Assembly (NCBI GenBank): GCA_963799775.1
Contig: CAWCYD010000003.1
Location: 64,001 to 128,000 of the forward strand
DNA length: 64,000 nt
Reading direction: 5' to 3'
Source: an uncultured archaeon
GTDB lineage: Archaea; Thermoproteota; Nitrososphaeria; Nitrososphaerales; Gagatemarchaeaceae
The first letter of the stretch is position 1. Every line of letters begins with the position of its first letter. Below, in pieces: positions 1,181 through 16,609 of this stretch. The translations under genes and the position numbers were made by a program. The notes below the pieces were generated by a model. The model worked only from the letters and a program-made list of their open reading frames with translations. It was not told where the DNA came from and did no database searches.

Positions 1181-1184
<4 letters not shown>

Positions 1185-2407: not shown

Positions 2408-4807
2408 TTCTGACGACAATGAAGACCAGCGCGCTTTCTCCCGATCTGCTGAAGCGGATCGACGCCTATTGGCGCGCGGCCAACTATCTCTCGGTCGGCC
2501 AGATCTACCTCTCAGACAACCCGCTGCTGAAGCAACCGCTCAAACTGGCGCACGTGAAACCGCTCGTGGTCGGACACTGGGGCACGGTGCCCGGGCAGAA
2601 TTTCATCTACGTGCACCTCAACCGCGTCATCAGAAACTTTGACCTCAACATGTTCTACATTTCGGGTCCGGGGCACGGCGGCCCCGCCGTGATGAGCAAC
2701 GTCTACCTCGAAGGCAGCTACAGCGAGGTCTATCCGAACATCAGCGAGGACGAAGCTGGGATGAAAGCGCTGTTCAAGCAGTTCTCATTCCCCGGCGGGG
2801 TCTCCAGCCATGTCGCCCCGACCACGCCCGGCTCGATACACGAAGGCGGCGAGCTAGGCTACTCTCTCAGCCATGCGTTCGGCGCGGTCTTCGACAACCC
2901 AGACCTGATCGTCGCGTGCGTCATCGGCGACGGGGAAGCGGAGACCGGCCCCCTCGCGACTGCATGGCACTCGAACAAGTTCCTAGATCCGGTCACCGAC
3001 GGGGTCGTGCTGCCTATACTGCACCTCAACGGTTACAAGATCTCCAATCCCACCGTCTTGGCCCGGATCAAGCAAGAGGAGTTGGAGGAGTTTCTCAGGG
3101 GCTGCGGGTGGGAGCCTCACTTCGTCGAAGGGGAAAGACCGGACAAGATGCACGAGCTCATGGCCGCCACCCTCGACGAGGTGATCCGAGACATCCTTCG
3201 AATCCAAAGGAACGCTCGAAGCAAGGATGACGCGTCCCGGCCACGGTGGCCCATGATCGTACTGAAGACGCCCAAGGGTTGGACTGGGCCGAAGGTCGTC
3301 GACGGCGTCCGAGTCGAAGGGACGTTCAGGTCGCATCAGGTGCCTCTCCTCGTCGGGGCAGAGCACCCCGACCATCTAAAACAGCTTGAAAGGTGGATGA
3401 AGAGCTACAGGCCGGAAGAGCTCTTCGATGAGCAGGGACGCCTCATGCCGGAGCTGGCTGAGCTCGCACCCGAGGGTGACAGGAGGATGGGGTCAAACCC
3501 CCACACGAACGGGGGGCTTCTGCTCCGGGCACCTCCGCATGCCAGACTTCCAGGACTACGCCGTGGATGTGCTCTCTCCCGGCTCCGTCACTGCCCAAGA
3601 CACTTCCGTGCTCGGCAGATTCCTGCGGGATGTGGTGAAGCTCAACCAAGACACGCGCAATTTCAGGATCTTCGGTCCCGACGAGACGCTCTCGAACCTG
3701 CTAGGGGCGGTCTTCGAGGCGACCAACCGTCAGTGGGACGCTAAGCTAGAGAGGGACGACGAGTTCCTCGCGCCCTCCGGGCGCGTCGTCGACTCGATGC
3801 TCAGCGAGCACCAGTGCGAGGGCTGGTTGGAGGGATATCTGCTCACAGGCAGACACGGCGTCTTCAACTGCTACGAGGCCTTCATTCACATCATCGACTC
3901 GATGTTCAACCAGCACGCCAAGTGGTTGAAAGTCACGTCGGAGCTCCCATGGCGCCGAAAGATCTCTTCGCTCAACTACCTGCTCAGTTCCCACGTCTGG
4001 CAGCAGGACCACAATGGCTTCACCCACCAGGACCCTGGCTTCCTCGACCACGTGATCAACAAGAAGGCTGACATCGTGCGCGTCTACCTTCCCCCGGACG
4101 CGAACTGCCTCCTCTCCATCTTCGATCATTGTCTTCGGAGCCGGAACTACGTGAACGTCGTCGTGGGTGGCAAGCACCCTCTCCCTCAATGGTTGAGCAT
4201 GGACGCGGCGATTGCCCATTGCACCGAGGGGATCGGCATCTGGCAGTGGGCGAGCAACGACCAGGGCACAGAGCCTGACGTCGTCCTAGCCTGTTGCGGA
4301 GACGTCCCCACGCTCGAGACACTTGCGGCAGCCTCGATCCTACGCGAACATCTCCCTCGCTTGAAGGTAAGGGTAGTCAACGTGGTCGACTTGATGAAGC
4401 TACAATCGCCCAGCGCGCATCCGCACGGCCTCAGCGACCCGGACTACGACTCTCTTTTCACGAAGAACAAGCACATCATCTTCGCCTTCCACGGCTATCC
4501 TTGGCTGATCCATCGCCTTACCTATCGTCGGACGAACCAAAGCCTGCACGTCCGCGGCTACAAAGAAGAAGGGACCATAACGACCCCGTTCGACATGAGG
4601 GTGCAAAACGACCTCGACCGTTTCCATCTCGTCCAAGACGTGATAGACCGAGTGCCCGACCTGGGTTCCCAAGGCGCCTACCTCAAACAGCAGATGCAGG
4701 ACAAGGTCATCGAGCACAAGCGGTACATCAGCAGTCACGGTCAGGACATGCCGGAGATCCGGAACTGGAAGTGGGATCCCCTGCAGTTGAAGCCTCCGTC
4801 AACTTGA
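2404..4807 (+). CDS. xfp: Xylulose-5-P/fructose-6-P phosphoketolase (one frameshift near 3530)
   Basis: [60 protein letters not shown] and [12 protein letters not shown], split over ORFs 2404-3744 and 3428-4807. Confidence 0.95.
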
Positions 4808-4994: not shown

Positions 4995-6002
4995 GTGGAA
5001 ACCCTCAAGGACGGAAAGGAACCAACGAAGGAAGAATTTCCGCGGGTCTCCGTGGAAGAAGCCTACGACAACCTCAAGGCGATGCACGTTCACGGGGCGG
5101 GTCGCATCGCTAGGTATGCCGCACAGGCACTGAGAGACTACGCAGGCGAAGCCAAAGCAAAGACCTCGAGAGAGTATTGGGGCCTCGTCCTCAAGGCCGG
5201 CGAGAAGCTCAGGTCCGCGAGGCCTACGGCCGTCTCGCTCCCCAACGGAGTGAACTACGTGCTCTACGGCGGAAGGACCGCCTTCGAGTCCGGCGGGTCT
5301 GTCGAGGACGTCCGGACCGCGACTGTCAACACCGCCAACGACTTCCTGACCTCCAGCTTAGACGCCGTGAAGGTGATCGGAGAGATCGGCGCTAGGCGCG
5401 TGAAGAACGGCGACGTGATAATCACACACTGCAACAGCGAAGCGGCGATGAGCGTCCTGAAGAAGGCCTACGACATGGGCAAGGGGATCAAGGTCTACTG
5501 CGACGAGACCCGACCCAAGTTCCAGGGCCACAAGACTGCGGCCGCGCTCGCGAACTATGGCATCGACACCACCCTGATCTGCGACTCTGCGTGCAGGGTC
5601 TACATGTCGCACGCCGACAGAACGGTGGTGGGCTGCGACGCAATCGCAGTCAACGGGGCGTTGGTGAACAAGATAGGGACCTCCCAGGTGGCCACGATGG
5701 CCCACGAGGCGAGGGTGAACTTCATGGTGGCAGCAGAAACCTACAAGCTTGACTTCAAGACTTTGACCGGCGGATTAGTGGACATCGAGGAGCGCGACCA
5801 CACCGAGATCGCCTCGAAGGAGTGGATGAACCACAACCCCAAGGTAAAGTTCAGCAATCCCGTATTCGATGTCACTCCCCCAGAGTACATCGACTTCTAC
5901 GTCACCGAGAAGGGAATCGTCCCTCCGGGCGGCGTCTTCTCGCTGATGAAGGAGCTATACCAGTACACAGAAGGTGCCCAGGCCAAGCCGAGCACCGGTT
6001 GA
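4995..6002 (+). CDS. Ribose-1,5-bisphosphate isomerase (eIF-2B/MtnA family)
   Basis: HGAGRIAR, RPTAVSL, THCNS (catalytic Cys), ETRPKFQG, VGCDAI (catalytic Asp), NKIGT and NPVFDVTP motifs, next to RuBisCO. Confidence 0.88.
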   Translation: METLKDGKEPTKEEFPRVSVEEAYDNLKAMHVHGAGRIARYAAQALRDYAGEAKAKTSREYWGLVLKAGEKLRSARPTAVSLPNGVNYVLYGGRTAFESGGSVEDVRTATVNTANDFLTSSLDAVKVIGEIGARRVKNGDVIITHCNSEAAMSVLKKAYDMGKGIKVYCDETRPKFQGHKTAAALANYGIDTTLICDSACRVYMSHADRTVVGCDAIAVNGALVNKIGTSQVATMAHEARVNFMVAAETYKLDFKTLTGGLVDIEERDHTEIASKEWMNHNPKVKFSNPVFDVTPPEYIDFYVTEKGIVPPGGVFSLMKELYQYTEGAQAKPSTG

Positions 6003-6018
6003 TTGGAGAACGCGTAAC

Positions 6019-6912
6019 ATGATAATATTCGGCGGATCCGCAGGCGAGACCCTAGCAGTGAGGGTGTCGCTCCTCACAGGAGCGAAGCTCGGAAAGGTCA
6101 AGAGGCAGAGGTTCCCAGACGGGGAGCAATACCTCAAGATCGAAGAGGACATCAAGGGCCAGGACGTCGTCCTCATCCACCCTCTCGGCGGCAGGCCCGA
6201 CGAGCTGATCATGGAGTACCTCCTCACGATCGACGCGCTGAAGAGCGCCAGCCCAAAGACGATAACCGTAGTTATCCCATACTTCGCCTATGCAAGGCAG
6301 GACGCCAGGTTCCACCCGGGTGAGCCGCTGAGCTTCCACCTGGTGGCGAAGCTCCTCGAGGGGGCGGGGATCAACAGGCTGTTCACGATAGACGTCCATC
6401 TCCAGAGGGCCCCGTCCCTGAAGGAGGTCTTCAAGATCCCGGCCGTGAACCTGACGGCGGTCCCATACATCGCGGAATACATCAACAGGATATACCAGCC
6501 GAAGAACCCAATCATCATCGGTCCTGACGACGAGTCAGAGCAATGGGCCAAGGTCGCCGCAGCGAAGATCAAGACCGACTACGCCATCCTCTCGAAGACG
6601 AGGTTCTCGTCCACCGAGGTCAAGGTCAAGGTGAGGGCGGGCCAGGGCGTCAACGTAAAGGGAAGGGACGCAATCATCATCGACGACATCATCAGCACAG
6701 GGAACACCATAGTCGAGGCCGCGAACCTCGTCAGAAAGGAAGGAGCAAGGAAGATCTACGTCGGTTGCACTCACCCCGTACTGAGCCTCAACGCGCTCCC
6801 GTTGCTGTATAGCAACCACATCGAGGGAGTGGTGGGGACCGACACCTTCGCAGGGCCGGTAAGCTTCGTGAGCGTCGCCCCGGTGATTGCGGAAGCTCTC
6901 AAGAAGAAGTAG
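6019..6912 (+). CDS. prs: Ribose-phosphate pyrophosphokinase (PRPP synthase)
   Basis: RFPDGEQY, PYFAYARQD, IDVH, IIGPD, IIDDIISTGNT and CTHPVL motifs; ATG at 6019. Confidence 0.93.
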   Translation: MIIFGGSAGETLAVRVSLLTGAKLGKVKRQRFPDGEQYLKIEEDIKGQDVVLIHPLGGRPDELIMEYLLTIDALKSASPKTITVVIPYFAYARQDARFHPGEPLSFHLVAKLLEGAGINRLFTIDVHLQRAPSLKEVFKIPAVNLTAVPYIAEYINRIYQPKNPIIIGPDDESEQWAKVAAAKIKTDYAILSKTRFSSTEVKVKVRAGQGVNVKGRDAIIIDDIISTGNTIVEAANLVRKEGARKIYVGCTHPVLSLNALPLLYSNHIEGVVGTDTFAGPVSFVSVAPVIAEALKKK

Positions 6913-7041
6913 CTTCCAGATTTCGCCGACATTCATCGGGCCGACAAGAGCCTAGACTCAGTTCTCTCCCCCTTGCGACTTGCGTCAAGCACAACTGTGT
7001 CTAGGGCATTTGTCTCGAGACAGAAAACCCTCTACATCTTT

Positions 7042-7078
7042 GGGAAAAACAGAAAGGCGAAGGCCCGGCGCGGGGCCT
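7042..7078 (-). terminator. Putative terminator of the rbcL-small ORF transcript
   Basis: Hairpin aggccc-ggcgcg-gggcct (7061-7078) followed on the minus strand by the T-rich tract cctttctgtttttccc. Confidence 0.45.
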
Positions 7079-7100
7079 GCCCAAGTCGGGGAGGAATGAC

Positions 7101-7271
7101 TCAGAAGTTCTTAGCCGGTGCGCCCGAGTCCTTCAGGTAGTGGAGCTGGTAGGGCTTGCCCGACATCCCCGCTATGCAGCACGTGCATCCGTAGTCTGCG
7201 CACTGAAGCGAGTTGTCGTGAGAGCAAGACCCGCAGGAACAGAAGATGTCGCCCTGAGTATGGTTCTTCAT
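7101..7271 (-). CDS. 56-aa Cys/His-rich small protein directly downstream of RuBisCO (absent from the ORF track)
   Basis: Hand translation MKNHTQGDIFCSCGSCSHDNSLQCADYGCTCCIAGMSGKPYQLHYLKDSGAPAKNF*; AAAGGAG Shine-Dalgarno between the rbcL stop and the ATG; host-like GC3 codon use. Confidence 0.75.
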   Translation of the reverse strand: MKNHTQGDIFCSCGSCSHDNSLQCADYGCTCCIAGMSGKPYQLHYLKDSGAPAKNF

Positions 7272-7286
7272 GTTCTAGGCTCCTTT

Positions 7287-8714
7287 CTACTCCGAGCGGA
7301 ACATGTGCCGGTAGTCGCTCTCCTTCTTCCCTAGCTCCGGTACTGCGGTCATCGCGGAAGCCACCGCGTACTTTTGCCCGAAGAACTGGATTGCAGCCTC
7401 GAGCTCCGGGTGGGTCTTTGCGTACTCGTCGACGGGGATCTTCTTCATGTAGGCGTCGACTGCCTGCCTCGCAGCGGTCGCGCCGGCCTTGGTCCCCCAT
7501 GGGTGTCCGTGGACGCTCCCGCCGTTCTGCAGCACGATATCGAGCCCCATCAGGTCGATGGAGTAGTGGTAGTTCTGCGGAGTCAAGCCCCCCGAGGAGA
7601 CCCCCCATATCGGCTTGATGTGGCCCAGAGGACCTTGTATCGCGTCCATTACCTCTGGTATCTCGACGAACTTTATCGCGTCTCCTAGCTTACCCCTGGC
7701 CGTGCCGACGTGGATCGCGTCTCCCCCCGCGATCCTGCCTAGCGCAGCGATGACCTTGAAACTGATTCCGTGCCTAGGGTGTCGTGTGAGTGCGGCGTGC
7801 GAAGCCCTGTGCAGGTGGATGGGGACGTTTATGCTGGGGTCCTCCGCGAGCGCCCTCAGAGAGGGGTACCAACTGCACATGATGTTCAGCATGAGGCCCT
7901 TGGCGCCGTGCGCGATCATCTTGTCCGCAACCTCGAGCGTCCTCTCGGAGTCGGTAGTCACCTCGGGTGCGTACATGTAGTCGCCCTCCGGGTGGGCGCC
8001 CTCGGACTTGGCCTTGTCGAGCGCCTCGTTGACCTTGGCGACGCGGTCGAGTAGAGGAGAGCACCACTGGTTGTGGTATGTCTCGTCGTCCTTGAACGTG
8101 TCGACCCCTCCCATTGCTGCATCGTAGAACTGCTGGGCTGCTCCCACGTCGGTCACGCCCATCTTCGGCTTGATCGTTATTCCCACGTGCGGTCGCCTGC
8201 TCTTCTTCGTCCCGACGATCTCCCTCAACCCTTCTACGCCGAACTTCGAACCCTTGAAGAGCTTGAGGACGTCCTTGGGAAGTTGGAAATCGATCCATTT
8301 GCAGTTCGGAATCGGCGTGAAGCCCATCCAGTTCCCTGTCACGAAGGTGAACAGGTCGGGAATTCCCCTGTTGTCCATGTCTAGCAGGTATGTGGGAAAG
8401 GCCACCTTGACCCATCCCGAGTGCTTCAGCGAGCCTGAGGGATCCTCGTACTTCCAAGAATAGAGCTTGGCCGCTGTCTTCGTGGAAAGGTCTGTTGCGG
8501 TGGACACATCCGTGAAAGTCCCCACAGACTGTTCGGCGGCGATGATAACGCCCGCTTGGTCGATGGTGACGCGCGGATCGCACGTTATGAAGAACGTGGC
8601 AAGGACGTTCTTGTCGACGTCGACCTTCTCTGGAGTGGTAGAGAACAGGTCTCCTCTGTCGTGTTCTACGCTTGGGGCGCTCCATGTCCTTTCAATCATC
8701 GCTTCTTGTGTCAT
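7287..8714 (-). CDS. rbcL: RuBisCO large subunit, form III-like
   Basis: AAEQSVGT (E60/T65), GN (N123), TIKPK (K175/K177), GVDTFKDDE (K201/D203/E204), HRA (H294/R295), HVGTARGKL (H327/K334), SSGG (S379) and QNGGSVHGHP; full catalytic set argues against a form IV RLP. Confidence 0.93.
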   Translation of the reverse strand: MTQEAMIERTWSAPSVEHDRGDLFSTTPEKVDVDKNVLATFFITCDPRVTIDQAGVIIAAEQSVGTFTDVSTATDLSTKTAAKLYSWKYEDPSGSLKHSGWVKVAFPTYLLDMDNRGIPDLFTFVTGNWMGFTPIPNCKWIDFQLPKDVLKLFKGSKFGVEGLREIVGTKKSRRPHVGITIKPKMGVTDVGAAQQFYDAAMGGVDTFKDDETYHNQWCSPLLDRVAKVNEALDKAKSEGAHPEGDYMYAPEVTTDSERTLEVADKMIAHGAKGLMLNIMCSWYPSLRALAEDPSINVPIHLHRASHAALTRHPRHGISFKVIAALGRIAGGDAIHVGTARGKLGDAIKFVEIPEVMDAIQGPLGHIKPIWGVSSGGLTPQNYHYSIDLMGLDIVLQNGGSVHGHPWGTKAGATAARQAVDAYMKKIPVDEYAKTHPELEAAIQFFGQKYAVASAMTAVPELGKKESDYRHMFRSE

Positions 8715-8903
8715 GTAAACCTGAAATTTCAGCCTCCGCAGGTTATTTATGTCTTAGTCGTTATCTGGCGATTCGAGATCCCTGCGTAACGACAACAGTC
8801 GAAGAGATTCTCATGAGATGTCCTTCACAAAATCTCAAACGGGCGCTCGCGTCCTCGTTAAGCTTAAAACGGGGACGCGCTTTGGCGGCTTCGGATTCAG
8901 GAG

Positions 8904-9938
8904 TTGGCTAGTCTCTCCATCGAAAGCCTGACCGTACTCCTAAACAAGTTTCAGGGCAAGCGCATGCTTGTCGTCGGCGATTTTCTCGTTAGCAGGTTCG
9001 TCGAAGTCTCAGCAAGGAAGCTCGCACGCGAAGCCCCCGTCCCGGCTGGCGACTACGTCGGCGAGACGCTGCTCCCAGGGGGCGCAGCTAACCTCGCGAA
9101 CGAGGTCGCATCGCTCGGAGGCCAGGTCTCCGTCATAGGCTCCATCGGGGAAGACAACTACGGAATCTGGCTGAAGGAGGGCCTGACAAGGAACGGCGTC
9201 GCGACGGAAGGCATAGTCGCGGACAAGCTGAGGCCGACGTCTTTGCGGACCTGGATCATGGTAAACAGACTACACTACCTTCGCATCGACCAGGAAGTCA
9301 GGAAGGAGGTATCGATAGCGGTCACAAAGTCTCTCGCTGCAGCGGCGGAGGTCATGATTCCAAACGTCGACGCGGTGGTGTTCTCCGACTATGACAGAGG
9401 GGTCGTCACTTCTTCTCTCATCAGCTCGGTCGTCGCTTCTGCGCGAAAGGCAGGCAAGATCGTGGTCGCACAGCCAAAGGACAGGCACTACATGGACTAC
9501 TCTGGCGTGACCTACGTGAAGTCCAACCTTGGGGAGGCGACCCACGCCACCGGCATGGCGATGGTCAATGAGACGAGTTTGAGGAACATGGGTGTAAACC
9601 TTATGGGCAGGTTGGACTGCAAGGGCCTAGTGATCACCCGTGGTGAGGAGGGCATGACGGTTTTCGATAGAGAGCAGATAACGAGCTTCCCACTTCCGTT
9701 CGGGAGGAAGAGCTTCTTCAACAAGGTCGGGGTCCGCGATGCCATGACGGGCGTGTTCGCCCTCGCCGTCGCGGCGGGCGGCTCGATATCGGAGGCGGCA
9801 TGCCTGAGCAACATAGCGGGGACGGTGAGGAGTGAGAAGCCCAGGACCTCGACTCTGACTGCTGAAGACCTCCACAAGAAGCTCGAATCGATGGGAGACT
9901 TCCTCAGCCGCGTCTCCCAGATGCCGGTGAGGCGTTAG
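8904..9938 (+). CDS. PfkB-family sugar-phosphate kinase resembling HldE/RfaE domain I, divergent
   Basis: VVGD..., REAPVP, PGGAANLA, VFSDYDRG and ITRGEEGM motifs; C-terminal anion-hole motif reads VGVRD rather than TGAGD. Confidence 0.85.
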   Translation: MASLSIESLTVLLNKFQGKRMLVVGDFLVSRFVEVSARKLAREAPVPAGDYVGETLLPGGAANLANEVASLGGQVSVIGSIGEDNYGIWLKEGLTRNGVATEGIVADKLRPTSLRTWIMVNRLHYLRIDQEVRKEVSIAVTKSLAAAAEVMIPNVDAVVFSDYDRGVVTSSLISSVVASARKAGKIVVAQPKDRHYMDYSGVTYVKSNLGEATHATGMAMVNETSLRNMGVNLMGRLDCKGLVITRGEEGMTVFDREQITSFPLPFGRKSFFNKVGVRDAMTGVFALAVAAGGSISEAACLSNIAGTVRSEKPRTSTLTAEDLHKKLESMGDFLSRVSQMPVRR

Positions 9939-9943
9939 AGATC

Positions 9944-10773
9944 ATGGGAATGGCCCCCACCTCCCAGGAGATTACGAGGCTCCAGGACATGGCAAGGAAC
10001 ACCAGGAAGCTCATCCTCGAGACGCTCGCAGAAGCCGGCTCGGGGCACCCAGGAGGGTCGCTCTCGGCAGTGGAACTCCTGGTCACGCTCTACTTCTACA
10101 AGCTCCGTCACGACCCAAAGAACCCAAAGTGGCCGGAAAGGGACAGGTTCATCCTAAGCAAGGGACACGGGGCGCCTCTCCTCTATTCGATCCTCGCTCA
10201 AGCTGGATATTTCCCGCTCGCTGAGCTCAAGTCCTTGAGGAAGCTCGGGGCCTTGCTCCAGGGTCACCCTGACATGGACATCCCTGGAGTCGAGATGCCC
10301 GCCGGCTCCGAGGGCATCGGTCTCTCCGTCGGCGTGGGACAGGCCCTCGCGGCAAGGCTAGACAACAGACCCACGAGGACCAGTACGTCCTGATGGGCGA
10401 CGGAGAGCAGGGTGAGGGCGAGGTGTGGGAGGCGGCGATGTCAGCTTCCAAGTTCAAGCTTGACAACCTCGTCGGGATGATCGACAGGAACGGCATCCAG
10501 CAGGACGGTCTCACCGAGCAGATCATGCCCCTCGAGCCTCTGGCCGCAAAGTGGAGGGCTTTCAACTGGAACGTCATCGAGGTCGACGGCTACGACTACC
10601 TCCAGCTGATAGAGGCCTTCGACACGGCCGAGATGGTCAAGAACAGGCCCACGATGATCATCGCCCACACGGTCAAGGGCAAGGGAATCTCCTTCATGGA
10701 GTGGTCCCCGACCTATCACGGGACCGCGCCGACGAAGGAGAGGATGGAAGACATCTACAAGGAGCTAAAGTAA
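9944..10773 (+). CDS. tktA: Transketolase N-terminal subunit (frameshift near 10383)
   Basis: SGHPGGSLS, RDRFILSKGH, LQGHP, GDGEQGEG and AHTVKGKG across two ORFs. Confidence 0.92.
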
Positions 10774-10779
10774 GTAGGG

Positions 10780-11508
10780 ATGATGTTGGAGACGACGATC
10801 CCTCCGAGAGAGATAAAGCGCGTCATCAAGATCGCTCCATCGATCCTGGGCGGCGACCAGTCCAACTTCGCAGCAGCATTGGATATCGCGGTCAAGGGCG
10901 GGGCTGACCAGATCCACCTCGACGTCATCGACGGACACTTCGCGCCGAACATAACCTTCGGGCCTGGGACCGTGAAGGCCCTGAGGAAGAAGACCGATTT
11001 GAAGTTCGACACGCACTTGATGATCGACCAGCCTGAGAACTTCGTCGACAAGTTCCTGGACGCGGGCTCTGACCTGTTCTGCTTCCACGCGGAGGCACTG
11101 ACCGGGGAGCGATTCGACGCGATATACTCCAAAGTCCATGCAAAGGGCAAGGTGATGGGCCTGGCGCTCAAGCCCTCGACCGAGATGCCAAAGTGGGTCG
11201 AGCAGAGGCTGGACAAGCTCGACACGCTGTGCGTGATGACGGTGAACCCAGGTTTCAGCGGCCAATCGATGATGATGGACGTGATGCCTAAGCTAGAGAA
11301 GATAACGCAGATGCTGAACGACAAGGGGCTCCCCATCGACATCGAGATAGACGGCGGGGTGGAGCTGGAGACCCTGGAGAACGTCGTGCGACGCGGAGGA
11401 AACGTCCTCGTCGCAGGCGCAGGAGTCTATTACAAGCCAGACCCGATCAAGGCCGTGGGGATACTGCGAGAAAAGGCGAAGCAGGCGTTAACGGTGGGGG
11501 CCAATTAA
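10780..11508 (+). CDS. rpe: Ribulose-phosphate 3-epimerase
   Basis: IAPSIL, HLDVIDGHFAPNITFG, DTHLMI, MTVNPGFSGQ and EIDGG motifs. Confidence 0.95.
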   Translation: MMLETTIPPREIKRVIKIAPSILGGDQSNFAAALDIAVKGGADQIHLDVIDGHFAPNITFGPGTVKALRKKTDLKFDTHLMIDQPENFVDKFLDAGSDLFCFHAEALTGERFDAIYSKVHAKGKVMGLALKPSTEMPKWVEQRLDKLDTLCVMTVNPGFSGQSMMMDVMPKLEKITQMLNDKGLPIDIEIDGGVELETLENVVRRGGNVLVAGAGVYYKPDPIKAVGILREKAKQALTVGAN

Positions 11509-11509
11509 G

Positions 11510-12469
11510 ATGCTAGAGAAAATGGGAGCGATGCGGAATGCCTACGGCGAGGCTCTCGTCGAGCTGGGCGCCAACAACCAGCGGATAGTGGTCCTGGGCG
11601 CCGACACCACAGATTCTATGAAGTCCGGGATGTTCGGGGTCAAGTATCCTGACAGGTTCTTCAACCTCGGAATCGCGGAGCAGAACCTCGTCGGCGTCGC
11701 CGCGGGGCTCGCCTTCGGAGGGAAGATCGCCTACGCAGGCACCTACGCCATCTTCGTCCCCGGAAAGTGCGTCGACCAGATACGGAACATGCTCTGCTAT
11801 GCCGACCTCGACGTCAAGATAGTCTGTTCCCACGCGGGGATCACGGTAGGCCCCGACGGAGGCTCGCACGAGCAGGTCGAGGACATAGCTCTGATGCGGT
11901 GCATACCTCACATGAGGGTCGTCGTCCCCGCGGACGCCGTGGCCGTCAAGGGCATAGTCAAGGCGATCGCGGACATCCCCGGACCGTTCTACGTGAGGAT
12001 CACCAGGGGAGTGATCAAGGGCTCGAACACCCCCATCGTGTACGAGAACGGCTTCGAGTACAAGCTGGGCAAGGTGAACGTGATCAGGGAAGGGAGCGAC
12101 GTCGCGCTCTTCGCGTGCGGGATAATGGTCCCGGAGGCGATGAGGGCCGCCGAGTCGCTGGCGAAGAAAGGGGTGCAGGCCAGCGTCATCGACGTCCACA
12201 CGGTAAAGCCGATAGACGAGGAGACGGTAATCAAATACGCAAGGAAGTGCGGCGCAGCCGTGAGCGCAGAGGAGCACAACGTCCTAGGGGGGATGGGCTC
12301 AGCCCTCGCGGAGGTCTTCACCGACCAGTATCCGATCCCGTTGAAGAGGGTCGGAGTGATGGACACCTTCGGGGAGAGCGGCGAGGCACAGGAACTTCTC
12401 AACAAATACGGGCTGACGGCCGCACACATCGAGGAGGCAGCCTCGCAGTCTGTAGCGATGAAACGATAG
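11510..12469 (+). CDS. tktB: Transketolase C-terminal subunit
   Basis: RFFNLGIAEQN, VGPDGGSHEQVED, HTVKPID, EEHNVLGG and DTFGESG motifs. Confidence 0.93.
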   Translation: MLEKMGAMRNAYGEALVELGANNQRIVVLGADTTDSMKSGMFGVKYPDRFFNLGIAEQNLVGVAAGLAFGGKIAYAGTYAIFVPGKCVDQIRNMLCYADLDVKIVCSHAGITVGPDGGSHEQVEDIALMRCIPHMRVVVPADAVAVKGIVKAIADIPGPFYVRITRGVIKGSNTPIVYENGFEYKLGKVNVIREGSDVALFACGIMVPEAMRAAESLAKKGVQASVIDVHTVKPIDEETVIKYARKCGAAVSAEEHNVLGGMGSALAEVFTDQYPIPLKRVGVMDTFGESGEAQELLNKYGLTAAHIEEAASQSVAMKR

Positions 12470-12503
12470 GCTTATTAAAAGAAATCCGACCCAAAACTTC
12501 GCC

Positions 12504-13178
12504 ATGATGAAGTTCTACCTGGACACCGCGAACTTAGCATCCATCAAGAAGTACAACGCGATGGGCCTCGTCGACGGGGTGACGACAAACCCCACTTTGA
12601 TCGTAAAGGAGGGCGCAGACTTTGAAGAGACGATCAAGGCGATATGCAAGGAGGTCTACCCGAACCCTGTCAGCGCAGAAGTGACCGCGACCGACTACGA
12701 GGGGATGGTCTCCGAGGGCAAGCGCAACAAGGCCTTCGCCGAGAACGTCGTGGTGAAGATCCCAATGATCCCAGAGGGCCTAAAGGCGACGAAGACGCTC
12801 AGCAAGATGGGCATCCCGATCAACATGACGCTCATCTTCTCCGCCAACCAGGCTCTCGCTGCGGCCAAGGCCGGCGCCTCCTACCTCAGCCCGTTCATCG
12901 GGAGGCTGGACGACATCGGACAGGACGGGATGGGCATGATCCGCGACCTAGTCGCGATCAAAAGGGCTTATCCGGGGACTTTCAAGGCGGAGATACTTGT
13001 AGCCAGCATCAGGCACCCCATACATGTGATGGAGGCTGCCAAGTTGGGCGCCGACATCGGCACGATGCCCGCTGAGGTCATGGACAAGCTGCTCCTGCAT
13101 CCTCTCACAGAAATCGGGTTGAAGCGCTTCTTGGACGACTGGAACAAGGCCAAGAAGGAAAAGCCGCTCACAGTCTAG
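12504..13178 (+). CDS. tal: Transaldolase (short Tal/Fsa type)
   Basis: FYLDTA, GVTTNPTL, VVKIP, TLIFS, SPFIGRLDD and ASIRHP motifs. Confidence 0.93.
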   Translation: MMKFYLDTANLASIKKYNAMGLVDGVTTNPTLIVKEGADFEETIKAICKEVYPNPVSAEVTATDYEGMVSEGKRNKAFAENVVVKIPMIPEGLKATKTLSKMGIPINMTLIFSANQALAAAKAGASYLSPFIGRLDDIGQDGMGMIRDLVAIKRAYPGTFKAEILVASIRHPIHVMEAAKLGADIGTMPAEVMDKLLLHPLTEIGLKRFLDDWNKAKKEKPLTV

Positions 13179-13881: not shown

Positions 13882-14491
13882 ATGCAGAGACCTACCGGGG
13901 CTCAGGACAAGACTTCGACGGTCCTTGAGGACTTCCTCGCCGCCCTCCGGGACACTCCACGTCCAAGGTCATGTGGTCAAGAGCGAGCCCGAGACGACCA
14001 AGGCGCTGAAGGGCATCCTCTCGGAAGCCGGCTCCCGGTCTGTCGTGGCGGCTGGGATACCGAGCCGCTACAGGAAAGCGGTCGACGCAGCGCTCGCCGG
14101 CCTGAGGTCGGACCATGTGGAAGAGATGAAAGGCACAACTCCAGAGAAGGCGGTAGGCGTCCTGGCCTCTGCCGACGCAGGCATCACGTGGGCCGTGAAC
14201 GGCCTAGCGATGGAGGGCGCAATGCTCGAAGTCGTTTACGACGATTCCCTGAAGCTCGCCTCCTCCTTGCCGATCCTCCATGTGGCCCTGCTCGAATCGT
14301 CGAGCATCCTGCGCGACCTCTCCGAGGCGATGCCCCTAGTGAAGGAATACGTCGCAGGCGCGCCTCCAGACAAAAAGCCGGTGATCTCCTTCATCGCAGG
14401 CCCCAGCAAGACCGGCGACATCGAGATGAGGTTGCTCTACGGAGTCCACGGGCCCCACACAGTGCATGCCATAATCCTCGACTGGGAGTGA
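13882..14491 (+). CDS. lutC: LUD-domain protein (LutC/YkgG-like), frameshift near 13955
   Basis: ADAGIT, SSLPILHVAL and FIAGPSKTGDIEMRLLYGVHGP motifs. Confidence 0.85.
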
Positions 14492-14501
14492 AGAACCGAG
14501 C

Positions 14502-16609
14502 ATGACGAACAACCGGCAGGTTCATCCTCGCCAAGCTGAAACGCGCCCTCAAGGACAAGGACTCCTCGGAGAAGTTCTGGGCCGCCATGACCAAGGCGAG
14601 GGCGAACCGCGAGGCCCTACTCGCCCAGGGCAAGCTGGACATCCACGCCATCAAAGAGTCGAACCGGGCTCTGAAGATGTCCGCGGTGGCCGACACCAGC
14701 CTGGTCCAGGAGTTCGCCGACAACATCACCAAGAACGGCGGGAAGGTCTTCATCGCCAAGACAGGCGCCGAGGCCATCCACTACGTGGAGGAGGTCTCGA
14801 AGAGGGTCGGCGCGAAGCTCATAGTCAAGGCCAAGTCGCTCACTTCAGACGAGATAGACTTTACACATGAGCTGGAGAAGTCGGGGGTCAAGGCGGTCGA
14901 GACCGACCTCGGAGAGCTGATCATACAAGTTGCCGGCGAGACCCCGGTCCATCTCGTCATGCCCGCCGCACACAAGTCGGTGCAAGAGATCGCTCAACTT
15001 GTCTCCAGCGCGGTGGGGAGGGAGATCCCCCCGGAAGACCAGGCGATACTGAGCGCGGTGAGGGCGTACCTCAGGCAGCTCTTCTTGACTGCAGAGATCG
15101 GCGTCACAGGGGCGAACATCGGGATAGCGGAGACCGGCTCCATCGTGATAGAGACGAACGAGGGCAACGGCCGTCTGGTCACCGCGATCCCGAAGGTGCA
15201 CCTCGTCATCATCGGGATGGAGAAGATAGTGCCAAAGTGGGCGGACGCGACCTACCTCGTGAAGGGGCACAGCGCGAGCGCCACTGGGCAGAACATGACG
15301 GTCTACGTCTCCGTTATCACGCAACACGCGCCCTTGGCGGGCTCCACGGACGGGAGGGAATACCACGTGATCATCCTCGACAACGGCAGGAGCAAGATGA
15401 GGGACGACCCCTGGTTCTCTGACGCTCTCAACTGCATCAGGTGCGGGGCGTGTATGAACATCTGCCCCACGTACGGAGTCGCCGGCGGGCACACCTTCGG
15501 CTACATCTATCCCGGCCCCATCGGGATCCCATGGACTGCGGAGGTCCACGGCCTGGACAAGGCCACCTTCGCCCACCTCTGCGTCTCGTGCGGCCTATGC
15601 AAGGAGATCTGCCCCGTGGACATCAACATCCCCATGATGATCGCAAAGGTCAAGGAGGAAGAGGTCCGGGAGAACGGACAGCTCACGGTAAACAGCTTCT
15701 TCATGTCCTCGGAGTCCCTCGCGAAGCTCGCGAGCGCGACGGCTCCCGCCTCGAACTGGCTCCTCAGAAGGAGCGCGACGAGGGCGGTGATGGAGTCCCT
15801 GGTCGGCGTCGACAAGAGAAGGACGCTCCCAAGCTTCTCCAGGAAGAGGTTGCGCAAGCGGATCGAAGGCCTGAGCAACGGAGAGGGGAACGCCGGGAAG
15901 GTCGTCTTCTTCCCGGACGTCTACGCCGACTACAACGACCCCGAACTCGGGGTGAGGGCCTTCAAGATCCTGGTCTCCCTGGGCTACAAGGTCGAGTGTC
16001 CCCAACCTTCATTGGAGCGGGATGCCATACATCTCGTATGGCGACATCGCAAAGGCGACCTCTGTTGCGAAGACCAACCTCGAGTCGCTCAAGAAGTATC
16101 TTGACGACGGCTATTCGGTCGTCTCCACCGAGCCCACGGCGATCTACATGTTCAAGGAGGTCTACCCAACCCTCGTCCCCGGCGCCCTCGCAGAGAAGGC
16201 CCGGACCGCGAGCTTCCCGTTCTTCGGCTTCATCCAGGAGGGACTCGGACAGCTCGAGCTCGACCCGGTCTATCCTACCCAAAAGCCGATAGGCTTCCAC
16301 ATCCCGTGCCACGACCGGGCCGTCTCGTCCGGAGGGCCCGCGATGGCCTTCCTCCGCGCGGCCGGGTACGACGTAAAGGTCGTCGAGGACGGCACTTGCT
16401 GCGGGATGGCAGGGACCTTCGGCATGAAGAAGGGGGACCTGGGCTACAACCTCTCGATGGAGGTGGGCGACCACCTCTTCAGGCTCTTCAGAGGCTCGGG
16501 CCTTGACCTTGTGGCCACGGAGAGCAGCGTCTGCTCGATGCAGATCTCGGACGGAGTGGGGCTGAAGGTCGTCCACCCGCTCTTGACGGCGAACCACGGC
16601 TCGAATTGA
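14502..16609 (+). CDS. lutB: LutB-like LUD/4Fe-4S protein fused to CCG domains (frameshifts near 14515 and 16005)
   Basis: KAKSLTSDEI, ETDLGE, HLVMPAAH, GVTGAN, NEGNGR, CIRCGACMNICP, CVSCGLCKEICP, HIPCH and CCGMAGTFG motifs. Confidence 0.85.

What the first reader, a model, noticed from the sequence alone, without database searches (positions are those of the whole stretch)
4995..13178. Form III RuBisCO clustered with pentose-regeneration genes but no PRK or AMP phosphorylase: candidate PRK-independent Calvin-like cycle
Seen: R15P isomerase, prs and an intact rbcL, then a divergent operon kinase-tktA-rpe-tktB-tal. Established: archaeal form III RuBisCO usually serves nucleoside salvage (AMP phosphorylase -> R15P isomerase -> RuBisCO), and the known form III Calvin variants regenerate RuBP with phosphoribulokinase. 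Inference: Tkt/Tal/Rpe regenerate ribose-5-P, which is taken to ribose-1,5-P2 by the novel kinase or through PRPP and then isomerised to RuBP. That would close a cyclic CO2-fixing or electron-sink route I do not recognise as described. Rpi, Pgk, GAPDH and FBPase are not in the window.
Basis: partly seen in the sequence, partly recalled or inferred. Interest (0 to 1): 0.85.

Follow-up and report, generated by a model that had tools for sequence, protein, structure and literature searches.

The report
RuBisCO module beside housekeeping pentose operon
A soil archaeon carries an intact RuBisCO with two helper genes next to its ordinary pentose-phosphate operon and no known enzyme for making RuBisCO's substrate the usual way, but this gene set and the proposed bypass through PRPP are already described for close relatives.

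Summary
In order they are R15P isomerase (e2b2), prs and an intact divergent form III RuBisCO, then, on the other strand, PfkB kinase-tktA-rpe-tktB-tal. In this assembly tktA carries a 2-nt insertion.

No PRK was found in this genome or in any of the 22 genomes that carry this RuBisCO clade. No AMP phosphorylase was found in any of the 8 genomes of the window's genus.

The locus is two units.
- **RuBisCO module:** e2b2, an extra dedicated prs copy, and rbcL. It is patchy, present in 8 of 23 genomes of the genus.
- **Pentose operon:** kinase-tktA-rpe-tktB(-tal). All 19 relatives examined keep it, 18 of them without any RuBisCO, and the four families with the kinase mostly lack e2b2.

The "novel kinase" is an HldA/RfaE-like PfkB enzyme tied to the pentose pathway, not to RuBisCO. 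The marine relatives that carry the same RuBisCO lack it.

RuBP most likely comes from R5P through PRPP and R15P. The enzyme for the PRPP to R15P step is unidentified.

This PRK- and AMPase-free route, closed by the pentose pathway and gluconeogenesis, was proposed in print for pSL12/HMT Thaumarchaeota. The rbcL-e2b2-prs adjacency was reported for Gagatemarchaeaceae.

Verdict: a real feature and a new member of a known but biochemically untested kind.

The parts
4995..6002 (+). e2b2, ribose-1,5-bisphosphate isomerase. First gene of the RuBisCO module.
   Evidence: TIGR00511 380 bits (cut-off 314), PF01008 278 bits. Orthologues 88-91% identical sit beside prs in the 7 RuBisCO-bearing congeners.
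5974..6912 (+). prs, PRPP synthase. An extra copy dedicated to the RuBisCO module; it probably starts at 6019.
   Evidence: TIGR01251 288.5 bits (cut-off 113); NF002095 290.7 bits, just under its cut-off of 296. Canonical motifs are kept against 1u9y and 1dkr. This is one of three Prs genes in the genome. Copies at 85% identity or more occur only in the 8 RuBisCO-bearing genomes among 97 of the family.
7287..8714 (-). rbcL, a divergent form III RuBisCO large chain of 475 aa.
   Evidence: PF00016 and PF02788. Below the NCBIfam cut-offs (form III 286 of 497; form I 289 of 438). The best solved structures are archaeal form III enzymes at 204-221 bits, against about 175 bits for form I. Catalytic motifs are conserved in that alignment.
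8715..8903 (.). 189-bp intergenic region between the divergently oriented rbcL and kinase genes.
   Evidence: Coordinates, sequence printed. No promoter analysis was done. In one congener (G186) rbcL lies in the opposite orientation.
8904..9938 (+). HldA/RfaE-like PfkB kinase of unknown substrate. Lead gene of the housekeeping pentose operon.
   Evidence: TIGR02198 230 bits, below the cut-off of 345. Best solved structure 4e84 at 118 bits. The usual GAGD motif reads G[V/I]RDA in 6 orthologues from four families. Distribution.
9944..10773 (+). tktA, the N-terminal half of a split transketolase. Frameshifted in this assembly.
   Evidence: PF00456 matches profile positions 4-130 and 151-268 in two frames. 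There is a 2-nt insertion relative to G156, G225 and G186. The gene is in one frame in the relatives.
10780..11508 (+). rpe, ribulose-phosphate 3-epimerase.
   Evidence: PF00834 196 bits; NF004076 202 bits (cut-off 165).
11510..12469 (+). tktB, the C-terminal half of the split transketolase.
   Evidence: PF02779 and PF02780.
12504..13178 (+). tal, a small TalC/FSA-type transaldolase.
   Evidence: TIGR00875 282 bits (cut-off 246); PF00923.

Best explanation
The locus is two functional units placed side by side in a soil Nitrososphaerota genome. On named relatives and GC content, the organism is most likely Ca. Gagatemarchaeum (Group I.1c).

**Unit 1: a three-gene RuBisCO module.** It holds R15P isomerase, an additional and apparently canonical PRPP synthase, and a divergent but catalytically intact form III RuBisCO.

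**Unit 2: the lineage's housekeeping non-oxidative pentose-phosphate operon.** It holds split transketolase, epimerase and transaldolase, and is headed by an uncharacterised HldA/RfaE-like kinase.

**Proposed flux.**
1. The pentose pathway and RpiA supply ribose-5-P.
2. The module's own Prs makes PRPP.
3. PRPP loses its terminal phosphate to give ribose-1,5-bisphosphate. The enzyme is not identified. A Nudix-type pyrophosphatase or spontaneous decay are the candidates named in print.
4. e2b2 isomerises R15P to RuBP.
5. RuBisCO adds CO2 to give two 3-phosphoglycerate.

Neither PRK nor AMP phosphorylase takes part. The gene content and its conservation are shown here. The PRPP to R15P step, the direction of flux, and whether the route closes into a net CO2-fixing cycle are inferred. 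The alternative is a route that only turns pentose-P plus CO2 into C3 units. By textbook stoichiometry the PRPP route costs two ATP equivalents per RuBP, against one with PRK. The kinase belongs to the pentose operon, not to the RuBisCO route.
For: **Gene identities:**

**The module is a unit.**
- e2b2-prs-rbcL are contiguous in G000 and in 5 of 7 congeners with this RuBisCO. The other 2 are split by contig ends but have prs beside e2b2.
- prs and e2b2 are adjacent in 7 of 12 loci of family f14, in the same cluster as rpe, tkt, tal, pgk and rbcL.
- e2b2, prs and rbcL are adjacent in G017.
- In G168, e2b2, prs and a RuBisCO only 34% identical lie next to each other.

**The prs is dedicated.** G000 has three Prs genes. 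Cluster-type copies occur only in the 8 RuBisCO-bearing genomes of 97 searched. All the other genomes have only copies 28-39% identical.

**No PRK.** 0 of 22 genomes over the cut-off.

**No AMP phosphorylase in the genus.** 0 of 8 genomes; only weak TrpD-like hits.

**The link to the pentose pathway arises in two architectures.**
- In the genus it sits next to the split-tkt operon.
- In f14 it sits with a full-length tkt plus pgk.

**The kinase is independent of RuBisCO.**
- 19 of 19 loci keep kinase-tktA-rpe-tktB, and 18 of 19 also have tal in the locus.
- e2b2-type genes occur in 32 of 401 genomes, and in none of f4, f7 or f9.

**Named relatives.**
- RuBisCO is 89-91% identical in records titled AcS1-13 and palsa_1368. 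Both names are listed under Gagatemarchaeaceae in PMC10640624.
- It is 73-75% identical in ASW8_bin1, ASW2_bin45 and ATL. 'ASW8 MAG' is cited in PMC7300363.
Against: - No enzyme for PRPP to R15P is encoded in or next to the module in any lineage examined.
- The genome is estimated 81.7% complete, so absences are not proof. The congeners searched are 76-95% complete.
- tktA is frameshifted here. If that is real, the pentose operon is broken in this strain.
- FBP aldolase/phosphatase (PF01950) was not found in G000. Class II aldolase was found in 0 of 8 genomes and class I FBPase over the cut-off in 0 of 8. Closure of a cycle therefore rests on weaker candidates: a DeoC-family aldolase next to a PFK, and an IMPase-type phosphatase.
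- Two f14 genomes of one genus (G014, G085) carry the same RuBisCO clade with no PPP, e2b2 or prs gene found in the about 9 kb fetched on each side of rbcL, and they do have AMP phosphorylase. The RuBisCO itself is therefore compatible with the classical AMP route.
- RuBisCO-bearing congeners form one subclade. Their kinases are 85-89% identical to G000's, against 67-70% for the other congeners. Their shared synteny is therefore one evolutionary event, not seven.
- There is no expression or activity data for this organism.
Confidence: 0.6

Rival explanations
1. The HldA-like PfkB kinase phosphorylates C1 of ribose-5-P (or of ribulose-5-P) and so supplies R15P or RuBP directly. That would make it a non-homologous replacement for PRK.
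For: - Its nearest characterised relatives phosphorylate the anomeric C1 hydroxyl of a sugar that already carries a terminal phosphate. This chemistry of HldA is recalled, not tested; the similarity is.
- It lies 189 bp from rbcL and in the same operon as the enzymes that make pentose phosphates.
- The route otherwise lacks an enzyme that forms R15P.
- Its substrate is unknown, and its catalytic Asp is kept within an unusual, invariant G-x-R-D-A motif.
Against: - It is present with the same operon in 19 of 19 loci from relatives. 18 of those genomes have no RuBisCO match.
- It is present in all genomes searched of f4 (9/9), f7 (13/13; one of these, G108, is an unpublished genome with a partial match) and f9 (11/11). 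Those families have no e2b2-type gene (0/9, 0/13, 0/11).
- It is absent from 0 of 15 f14 genomes that carry the orthologous RuBisCO module.
- The module carries its own prs, which a direct kinase would make unnecessary.
Confidence: 0.07
2. The adjacency of the RuBisCO module and the pentose operon is a neutral accident of where the module landed. On this view the module works as a linear salvage route for surplus PRPP or ribose moieties, with no special coupling to the operon.
For: - Within the genus, the adjacency traces to one subclade and so to one event.
- In G186 rbcL has flipped orientation without loss of the neighbours.
- Two f14 genomes have rbcL away from any pentose gene.
- The ackA-xfp pair just upstream in G000 is not found in the fetched flanks of any of the 6 congeners that have upstream sequence.
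Against: An independently organised cluster in f14 joins rbcL to rpe, a different (full-length) tkt, tal, prs, e2b2 and pgk. This is seen in 7 of 12 loci, and 3 more are cut by contig ends but agree. That argues for selection on the linkage.
Confidence: 0.2
3. A PRK or AMP phosphorylase exists but lies in the unassembled part of the genome.
For: Estimated completeness is 81.7%. One genus of f14 with the same RuBisCO clade does have AMP phosphorylase (G014 at 588.7 bits; G085 partial).
Against: - The assembly is 3 contigs. Many genes I inspected are split by frameshifts, which lowers marker-based completeness without loss of sequence.
- The searches were six-frame.
- 0 of 8 genomes of the genus have either enzyme.
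Confidence: 0.03
4. The kinase is a true heptose-7-phosphate kinase. On this view it draws sedoheptulose-7-P from the pentose pathway into heptose for cell-surface glycans.
For: The best family match is TIGR02198. The closest solved structure is HldA. The ESM Atlas neighbours are ADP-heptose synthase and heptose-7-P kinase clusters. Sedoheptulose-7-P is made by the neighbouring enzymes.
Against: - The score is below the family cut-off (230 of 345).
- The GAGD motif is altered.
- No GmhA, GmhB or nucleotidyltransferase gene flanks the operon in the 5 loci annotated.
- The genome's heptose-type cluster (SIS isomerase, HAD phosphatase, nucleotidyltransferase) has its own GHMP-family kinase.
Confidence: 0.2

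Closest known systems
PRPP-fed RuBisCO route proposed for marine pSL12-like / heterotrophic marine Thaumarchaeota (Reji & Francis, bioRxiv 10.1101/2019.12.22.886556; Aylward & Santoro, PMC7300363). Passages read.
   Same: - The same RuBisCO clade: named MAGs ASW8_bin1, ASW2_bin45 and ATL are 73-74% identical.
- The same partners, e2b2 and prs.
- No AMP phosphorylase, and non-oxidative pentose genes nearby.
- The same proposed chemistry: R5P to PRPP to R15P to RuBP to 3-PG, closed by gluconeogenesis and the pentose pathway.
   Different: - This is a 59% GC soil genome, against about 32-36% GC in the marine loci.
- The module sits against a split-transketolase operon headed by a PfkB kinase. The marine lineage lacks that kinase.
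- The marine cluster has a full-length tkt, pgk and an NAD-dependent epimerase instead.
- Here the module's prs is demonstrably an extra copy.
rbcL-e2b2-prs adjacency in three topsoil Gagatemarchaeaceae genomes (Sheridan et al. 2023, PMC10640624). Passages read.
   Same: - The same three adjacent genes, in what appears to be the same genus.
- The named record AcS1-13 has a RuBisCO 90% identical to this one and is listed as Ca. Gagatemarchaeum.
- The patchy presence within the family agrees with 8 of 23 genomes in the genus.
   Different: - The passages I read do not mention the neighbouring kinase-tkt-rpe-tkt-tal operon.
- They state that prs is absent from the other family members. I find housekeeping Prs homologues in 82 of 97 genomes.
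- I did not open their supplementary data.
Archaeal AMP / pentose bisphosphate pathway of Thermococcus (AMP phosphorylase, R15P isomerase, form III RuBisCO; also nucleoside phosphorylase plus ribose-1-P kinase). Recalled: Sato 2007, Aono 2015. Both are cited in the papers read.
   Same: R15P isomerase and a form III-type RuBisCO act in series.
   Different: There is no AMP phosphorylase. The PfkB kinase here scores only 30.5 bits on the ribose-1-P kinase model NF053626, whose cut-off is 330. A dedicated Prs takes the entry position.
PRK-dependent form III routes: the reductive hexulose-phosphate pathway of methanogens (Kono 2017, PMC5241800; search listing only) and the transaldolase variant of the Calvin cycle (Frolov 2019; recalled).
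   Same: A form III-type RuBisCO is linked to sugar-phosphate rearrangement enzymes, including transaldolase.
   Different: No PRK-family gene was found.
HldA / RfaE domain I, D-glycero-beta-D-manno-heptose-7-phosphate kinase (solved structure 4e84).
   Same: The PfkB fold family. The N-terminal REAPVP and GGAAN motifs, the NxxE motif and the catalytic Asp are shared in the alignment.
   Different: - The score is below the family cut-off.
- GAGD is replaced by G-V/I-R-D-A.
- It always heads a pentose-phosphate operon.
- It is confined to four families of one order: 2 of 401 genomes in a phylum-wide sample, both from this order.

Membership tests
Bona fide (carboxylating) RuBisCO, form III | The catalytic and RuBP-binding residues (KPK, KDDE with the carbamylated Lys, HxHR, the H...GKL region, SGG, GG). 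Residue roles and numbering are recalled. | tested here: met
   The alignment to the archaeal form III structure 8dht shows ikpkmg, fkdde, hlhrashaa, ihvgta..gkl, vssggl and nggsvhghp aligned to the equivalent motifs.
Bona fide (carboxylating) RuBisCO, form III | Closer to form III than to forms I, II or IV, and passing the curated form III model. | tested here: inconclusive
   The best solved structures are archaeal form III enzymes (204-221 bits), against about 175 bits for form I and 165 bits for 5mac. NCBIfam TIGR03326 gives 286 bits, below the cut-off of 497, and equal to the form I subfamily score of 289. Published trees place the marine orthologues as 'divergent form III-a' (passages). 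I built no tree.
Archaeal AMP pathway (AMPase, R15P isomerase, RuBisCO) | AMP phosphorylase (a DeoA homologue, TIGR03327). | tested here: not met
   The only hit in G000 is 38 bits and is TrpD, inside a trp operon. 0 of 8 genomes of the genus are over the cut-off.
Archaeal AMP pathway (AMPase, R15P isomerase, RuBisCO) | R15P isomerase of the e2b2 type. | tested here: met
   TIGR00511 380 bits, cut-off 314.
Calvin-Benson cycle / reductive hexulose-phosphate pathway | Phosphoribulokinase (PF00485). | tested here: not met
   No match in G000; 32 first-look candidates were scored. 0 of 22 genomes with this RuBisCO clade are over the cut-off. The control search rang in 11 of 14 reference genomes.
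Calvin-Benson cycle / reductive hexulose-phosphate pathway | Regeneration enzymes: Tkt, Rpe, Rpi, Tal or SBPase, PGK, GAPDH, FBP aldolase and FBPase. | tested here: inconclusive
   - Found: Tkt, Rpe and Tal in the window; RpiA; a PGK candidate at 27% identity, E 2e-22; GAPDH, split; a DeoC-family aldolase beside a PFK; an IMPase-type phosphatase.
- Not found: PF01950, PF01116 (0 of 8), PF00316 over the cut-off (0 of 8).
- TPI was not searched.
PRPP synthase (Prs), archaeal class III | The ATP-binding PY..YARQD motif, the His of the D-x-H motif, the PD loop, the K-x-R flexible loop and the DDIISTG ribose-5-P loop. Motif roles are recalled. | tested here: met
   All of these align with 1u9y (M. 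jannaschii) and 1dkr (B. subtilis). TIGR01251 gives 288.5 bits (cut-off 113). The archaeal equivalog NF002095 gives 290.7 bits, just under its cut-off of 296.
HldA/RfaE domain I heptose-7-phosphate kinase | Score over the curated cut-off of TIGR02198. | tested here: not met
   230 bits against a cut-off of 345.
HldA/RfaE domain I heptose-7-phosphate kinase | The PfkB GAGD anion-hole and catalytic motif. | tested here: not met
   It reads G-V/I-R-D-A, invariant in 6 orthologues from four families. The Asp is kept.
HldA/RfaE domain I heptose-7-phosphate kinase | Genomic association with GmhA, GmhB and a heptose-1-P nucleotidyltransferase. | tested here: not met
   None lies in the flanks of the operon in the 5 loci annotated. 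The genome's SIS/HAD/nucleotidyltransferase cluster has a GHMP kinase of its own.
Ribose-1-phosphate kinase of the pentose bisphosphate pathway | A match to the curated model NF053626. | tested here: not met
   30.5 bits against a cut-off of 330. The ADP-dependent Thermococcus type was not tested.

The most novel reading that the evidence does not exclude
In acid-soil Ca. Gagatemarchaeum, the e2b2-Prs-RuBisCO module and the adjacent pentose operon run as a true PRK-independent CO2-fixing or mixotrophic cycle. PRPP is the committed intermediate, formed by a Prs paralogue recruited for this purpose. The missing R15P-forming step is either an unrecognised PRPP pyrophosphatase or, less likely, the lineage-specific HldA-like kinase acting on ribose-5-P. 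That would be a biochemically new way of regenerating RuBP.
Probability: 0.15. Interest if true: 0.8.

Novelty: new member of a known kind. Interest (0 to 1): 0.35.

Why it matters
The route from ribose-5-P to RuBP without PRK or AMP phosphorylase has been inferred from genomes for the marine heterotrophic Thaumarchaeota, but never shown biochemically.

This soil lineage adds three things that make the idea easier to test.
- The prs in the module is an extra, dedicated copy. That points to PRPP as the real entry metabolite.
- The same e2b2-prs-rbcL grouping recurs with different RuBisCO types and in different families.
- RuBisCO has become linked to pentose-pathway genes twice, in two different architectures.

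The work also removes a tempting false lead, the neighbouring kinase. In doing so it exposes a separate small puzzle: an uncharacterised, lineage-restricted HldA-like kinase that always heads the pentose operon of non-ammonia-oxidising relatives.

If the cycle were shown to fix CO2, it would change how carbon budgets of abundant acid-soil and deep-ocean archaea are read. As it stands, the finding mostly confirms published inference.

Tried and rejected
1. **Reads.** I used them to test whether the tktA and xfp frameshifts are real. Only one soil-metagenome study held a small share (0.11) of the words. The contigs were short and mostly from relatives, and none bridged position 10381 with an identical strain. 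No RNA holder was listed. The result was uninformative.
2. **The listing of cluster members** was unavailable, so I could not get names for the RuBisCO homologues that way. I used record titles instead.
3. **The search of earlier findings** was closed.
4. **The kinase as the missing phosphofructokinase.** I dropped this for G000 because a canonical PFK (PF00365, 347 bits) sits beside a DeoC-family aldolase.
5. **The module's Prs as an altered enzyme that makes R15P directly.** I dropped this because all the catalytic motifs I could recall are conserved.
6. **The third Prs-like paralogue (genome C3:786546-787565)** as a candidate for the missing step. It keeps the Prs motifs and sits with ThiI and a nucleotidyltransferase. 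It co-occurs with the RuBisCO-bearing subclade, but that is confounded by shared descent. I left it open.
7. **ESM Atlas** returned only heptose-kinase-like PfkB clusters.
8. **A literature search for a heptose-kinase-like gene in archaeal pentose operons** listed nothing relevant among the 15 papers shown of 371.
9. **No RuBisCO tree was built**, because no form I, II or IV reference sequences were available as stored proteins.

Full report
**What is there**

The window is contig 3, bases 64001-128000, of a 2.47-Mb genome in three contigs with 59% GC. Between 4995 and 13178 the ORF list and two profile libraries agree on the following genes.

| Coordinates | Strand | Gene | Key score |
|---|---|---|---|
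| 4995-6002 | + | R15P isomerase, e2b2 type | TIGR00511 380 bits, cut-off 314 |
| 5974-6912 | + | ribose-phosphate diphosphokinase (prs) | TIGR01251 288.5 bits, cut-off 113 |
| 7287-8714 | - | RuBisCO large chain, 475 aa | PF00016 and PF02788 |
| 8904-9938 | + | PfkB kinase | TIGR02198 230 bits, cut-off 345 |
| 9944-10773 | + | tktA, N-terminal half of split transketolase | PF00456 in two frames |
| 10780-11508 | + | rpe | PF00834 196 bits |
| 11510-12469 | + | tktB, C-terminal half of split transketolase | PF02779 and PF02780 |
| 12504-13178 | + | small TalC/FSA-type transaldolase | TIGR00875 282 bits, cut-off 246 |

A 189-bp gap separates rbcL from the kinase.

The RuBisCO has no internal stop. 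It aligns best with solved archaeal form III enzymes (204-221 bits), better than with form I (about 175 bits). The lysines of the KPK motif, the KDDE motif, HxHR, the H...GKL region, SGG and GG all align. It falls below the curated cut-offs of both the form III and the form I NCBIfam models (286 of 497 and 289 of 438), so it is a divergent member.

tktA is in two frames because of a 2-nt insertion relative to three congeners. The upstream phosphoketolase is split in the same way.

**Frameshifts and completeness**

Several other genes I looked at in this genome are also split. They are the housekeeping prs, a second e2b2 copy, GAPDH, a peptidase and a nucleotidyltransferase. With only three contigs, I read this as indel errors of a long-read assembly rather than as pseudogenes. 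I could not test that, because the public runs were uninformative. The same errors would depress the marker-based completeness estimate of 81.7%.

**Who it is**

The closest RuBisCO homologue that carries a name is from a Nitrososphaerales MAG, at 82% identity. In the species-representative genome collection, record titles give two groups of relatives.
- MAGs titled palsa_1368, SMAG_U15343, AcS1-13 and MFD05512.bin.2.38 have RuBisCOs 89-91% identical.
- MAGs titled ASW8_bin1, ASW2_bin45, ATL, SAT139, UBA223 and others have RuBisCOs 73-75% identical.

AcS1-13 is listed as Ca. Gagatemarchaeum, and palsa-1368 as a Group I.1c genome, in Sheridan et al. (PMC10640624, passages). That paper gives 54-62% GC for the family. 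'ASW8 MAG' is the pSL12-like marine MAG cited by Aylward & Santoro (PMC7300363).

The organism is therefore most likely a topsoil Gagatemarchaeaceae archaeon. Its RuBisCO belongs to the clade that two papers call a divergent form III-a.

**Are PRK and AMP phosphorylase missing?**

A six-frame search with the PRK family found nothing in this genome. It found nothing over the cut-off in any of the 22 genomes that carry this RuBisCO clade. One of those had a sub-threshold hit of 18 bits.

The AMP phosphorylase model gives a single 38-bit hit in this genome. That hit is TrpD, lying between TrpE and TrpC. Across the 22 genomes, only one genus of the marine-related family has the enzyme: G014 at 588.7 bits, and G085 with a partial copy at a contig end. 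None of the 8 genomes of the window's genus has it.

**The locus is two units, not one**

I searched 401 genomes sampled from the order with the RuBisCO.
- The clade at 72% identity or more is in 8 of 23 genomes of the genus, counting this one.
- It is in 13 of 15 genomes of a second family, f14.
- One genome of a third family has a copy at 53% identity.
- Seventeen further genomes have other RuBisCO types at 33-39% identity.

I then fetched about 9 kb on each side of rbcL in 20 of these genomes. G050 was left out for lack of slots.
- Five of the 7 congeners show the full order e2b2-prs-rbcL-kinase-tktA-rpe-tktB-tal. The other two are cut by contig ends and agree with it.
- In one congener (G186), rbcL lies in the opposite orientation.

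The same search with the kinase gave a very different picture.

| Family | Genomes with the kinase |
|---|---|
| f1 (the window's family) | 81 of 96 |
| f4 | 9 of 9 |
| f7 | 13 of 13 (one, G108, is an unpublished genome with a partial match) |
| f9 | 11 of 11 |
| f14 | 0 of 15 |
| f12 and f15 (the two largest families) | 1 of 224, a 24%-identical PfkB |

I fetched 19 loci from those four families. All 19 have kinase-tktA-rpe-tktB in the same order, and 18 of the 19 also have tal in the locus. None has e2b2, prs or rbcL nearby. Eighteen of those 19 genomes have no RuBisCO match at all.

The flanks in five annotated loci are unrelated housekeeping genes. In a 401-genome sample of the whole phylum, the kinase appears only in this genome and in one genome of f9.

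R15P isomerase genes follow RuBisCO, not the kinase. They occur in 32 of 401 genomes, with none in f4, f7 or f9.

So the kinase-led pentose operon is an old, lineage-specific housekeeping unit. The RuBisCO module was placed next to it in one subclade of the genus. That subclade shows in the kinase identities: 85-89% among RuBisCO-bearing congeners, against 67-70% for the others.

**What the kinase is**

It is an HldA/RfaE domain I-like PfkB protein. It scores 230 bits on TIGR02198, below the cut-off of 345. Its best solved structure is the Burkholderia heptose-7-phosphate kinase 4e84, and its Atlas neighbours are all heptose-kinase-like.

Six orthologues from four families keep the REAPVP, GGAAN and NxxE motifs and the catalytic Asp. 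They replace the usual GAGD with an invariant G-V/I-R-D-A.

It is probably not the cell's heptose kinase. The genome has a separate cluster with a SIS isomerase, a HAD phosphatase, a nucleotidyltransferase, a GHMP kinase and a second transaldolase.

Nor does it need to be the phosphofructokinase, since a canonical PFK lies beside a DeoC-family aldolase. It scores only 30.5 bits on the ribose-1-phosphate kinase model.

Its substrate remains unknown. I take it to be a sugar-phosphate kinase acting on a pentose-pathway intermediate.

**How RuBP is most likely made**

The strongest clue is the prs. This genome has three Prs genes.
- One is a housekeeping copy next to a Nudix gene.
- One is a third, divergent copy.
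- One is the copy in the module.

Among 97 genomes of the family, copies 85% or more identical to the module's prs occur only in the 8 RuBisCO-bearing genomes. All the others have only copies 28-39% identical.

The grouping of prs with e2b2 and rbcL recurs in three other settings.
- In f14.
- In G017.
- Next to a RuBisCO only 34% identical, in G168.

The module's Prs keeps the motifs of the M. jannaschii and B. subtilis enzymes. I therefore take its product to be PRPP.

The chain is then R5P to PRPP to R15P to RuBP to two 3-PGA. The PRPP to R15P step has no gene in or next to the module in any lineage examined. It stays inferred.

**Can it be a cycle?**

The pieces for regeneration have candidates in this genome.
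- Tkt, Rpe and Tal are in the window.
- RpiA is present.
- There is a PGK-like gene at 27% identity to the marine PGK, E 2e-22.
- There is a GAPDH, split.
- There is a class I-type aldolase beside a PFK.
- There is an IMPase-type phosphatase.

The enzymes usually looked for in archaea and bacteria were not found.
- The bifunctional FBP aldolase/phosphatase was not found.
- Class II aldolase was found in 0 of 8 genomes.
- Class I FBPase over the cut-off was found in 0 of 8 genomes.

In f14 the RuBisCO cluster also contains pgk, a full-length transketolase, rpe and tal. RuBisCO has therefore become linked to pentose-pathway genes in two different architectures. That argues for a functional link rather than accident.

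The sequence cannot tell whether the flux closes into net CO2 fixation, tops up heterotrophy, or simply converts pentose phosphate plus CO2 into C3 units.

**Comparison with what is known**

The route is not new as an idea. Reji & Francis (passages) describe the same steps for the pSL12-like marine lineage.
- R5P is formed by the non-oxidative pentose pathway.
- Prs makes PRPP.
- R15P forms abiotically or through a Nudix hydrolase.
- R15P isomerase and RuBisCO follow.
- Gluconeogenesis returns the carbon to F6P.

They note that key genes are co-localised. Aylward & Santoro concur and report high expression of the RuBisCO. Sheridan et al. report rbcL, e2b2 and prs adjacent in three topsoil Gagatemarchaeaceae genomes.

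This window adds four things.
- The module abuts the pentose operon.
- Its prs is an extra copy.
- The neighbouring kinase is not part of the route.
- One genus of the related family pairs the same RuBisCO clade with a classical AMP phosphorylase instead.

I did not open the supplements of these papers. They may already contain some of this.

**Verdict**

The feature is real and conserved. The kinase hypothesis is not supported, and the PRPP branch is supported but already published as a genomic inference. I rate it a new member of a known, still untested kind, with moderate-to-low interest. The open biochemical question, who makes R15P, remains worth an experiment.

Noticed in passing
window 1181-4807: Acetate kinase (1181-2407) followed by a phosphoketolase lies directly upstream of the RuBisCO module. 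The phosphoketolase is split into two overlapping frames (2404-3744 and 3428-4807), with contiguous profile coverage 8-379 and 359-795. This pair is not found in the fetched flanks of any of the 6 congeners that have upstream sequence.
   Followed up: partly
genome-wide, e.g. window 10381, window about 3500, G000 C2:164709-165568, C3:1928521-1929365, C3:549603-550035: Many genes are split by frameshifts in this 3-contig assembly. Other few-contig relatives (G294, G336, G342) show split genes too. This is probably long-read indel error. It would lower the completeness estimate.
   Followed up: partly
G000 C3:437000-447900 (locus L120): A heptose-type glycan cluster. It holds a nucleotidyltransferase, a GHMP kinase, a polysaccharide flippase, a SIS isomerase (96 bits on the gmhA model), a HAD phosphatase, a second transaldolase paralogue and two NAD-dependent epimerases/dehydratases.
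   Followed up: partly
G000 C3:1928521-1929365 (L124) and C3:1239863-1240720 (L123): A second e2b2-type copy, 71% identical to the module's and frameshifted, occurs only in a few congeners. A separate MtnA-type isomerase is also present (TIGR00512 383.6 bits).
   Followed up: partly
G000 C2:164709-166579 (L121): The housekeeping prs (frameshifted) lies directly downstream of a Nudix hydrolase gene on the same strand. A Nudix enzyme is the candidate named in print for converting PRPP to R15P. I did not check whether this adjacency is conserved.
   Followed up: no
G000 C3:786546-787565 (L122): A third, divergent Prs-like gene (162 bits on the archaeal Prs model) lies downstream of ThiI and a nucleotidyltransferase. 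Homologues appear in all 8 RuBisCO-bearing congeners and in G360, but not in the other congeners. This is confounded by shared descent.
   Followed up: partly
G000 C3:773925-775611 (L125, L145): A canonical PFK (PF00365, 347 bits) lies divergently adjacent to a DeoC/LacD-family aldolase (142 bits). The passages read in PMC10640624 say the family lacks phosphofructokinase.
   Followed up: no
L039 (G085) and L041 (G014); G014 C3:92406-93863: One genus of the related family has the same RuBisCO clade (79-82% identical) next to dnaK only, with no pentose, e2b2 or prs neighbours. It does encode an AMP phosphorylase (588.7 bits in G014).
   Followed up: partly
L044 8108-9067 and 1394-2593 (G068): In the low-GC family the RuBisCO cluster contains an NAD-dependent epimerase/dehydratase between tal and rbcL, and a pgk next to prs. 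dnaK lies next to rbcL there and about 9 kb away in the window, a remnant of shared synteny.
   Followed up: no
L035 (G186) 9125-10552: In one congener rbcL lies on the same strand as e2b2, prs and the kinase operon. This is a local inversion of the single gene.
   Followed up: no
window 8904-9938 and orthologues (alignment A1): The kinase clade has an invariant Arg inside the PfkB anion-hole motif (G-x-R-D-A in place of G-A-G-D). It is confined to four families of one order.
   Followed up: partly
window 13882-14505: A 207-aa ORF after tal has no Pfam or NCBIfam match and no tblastn hit in any of the 20 related loci. It may not be a gene.
   Followed up: partly
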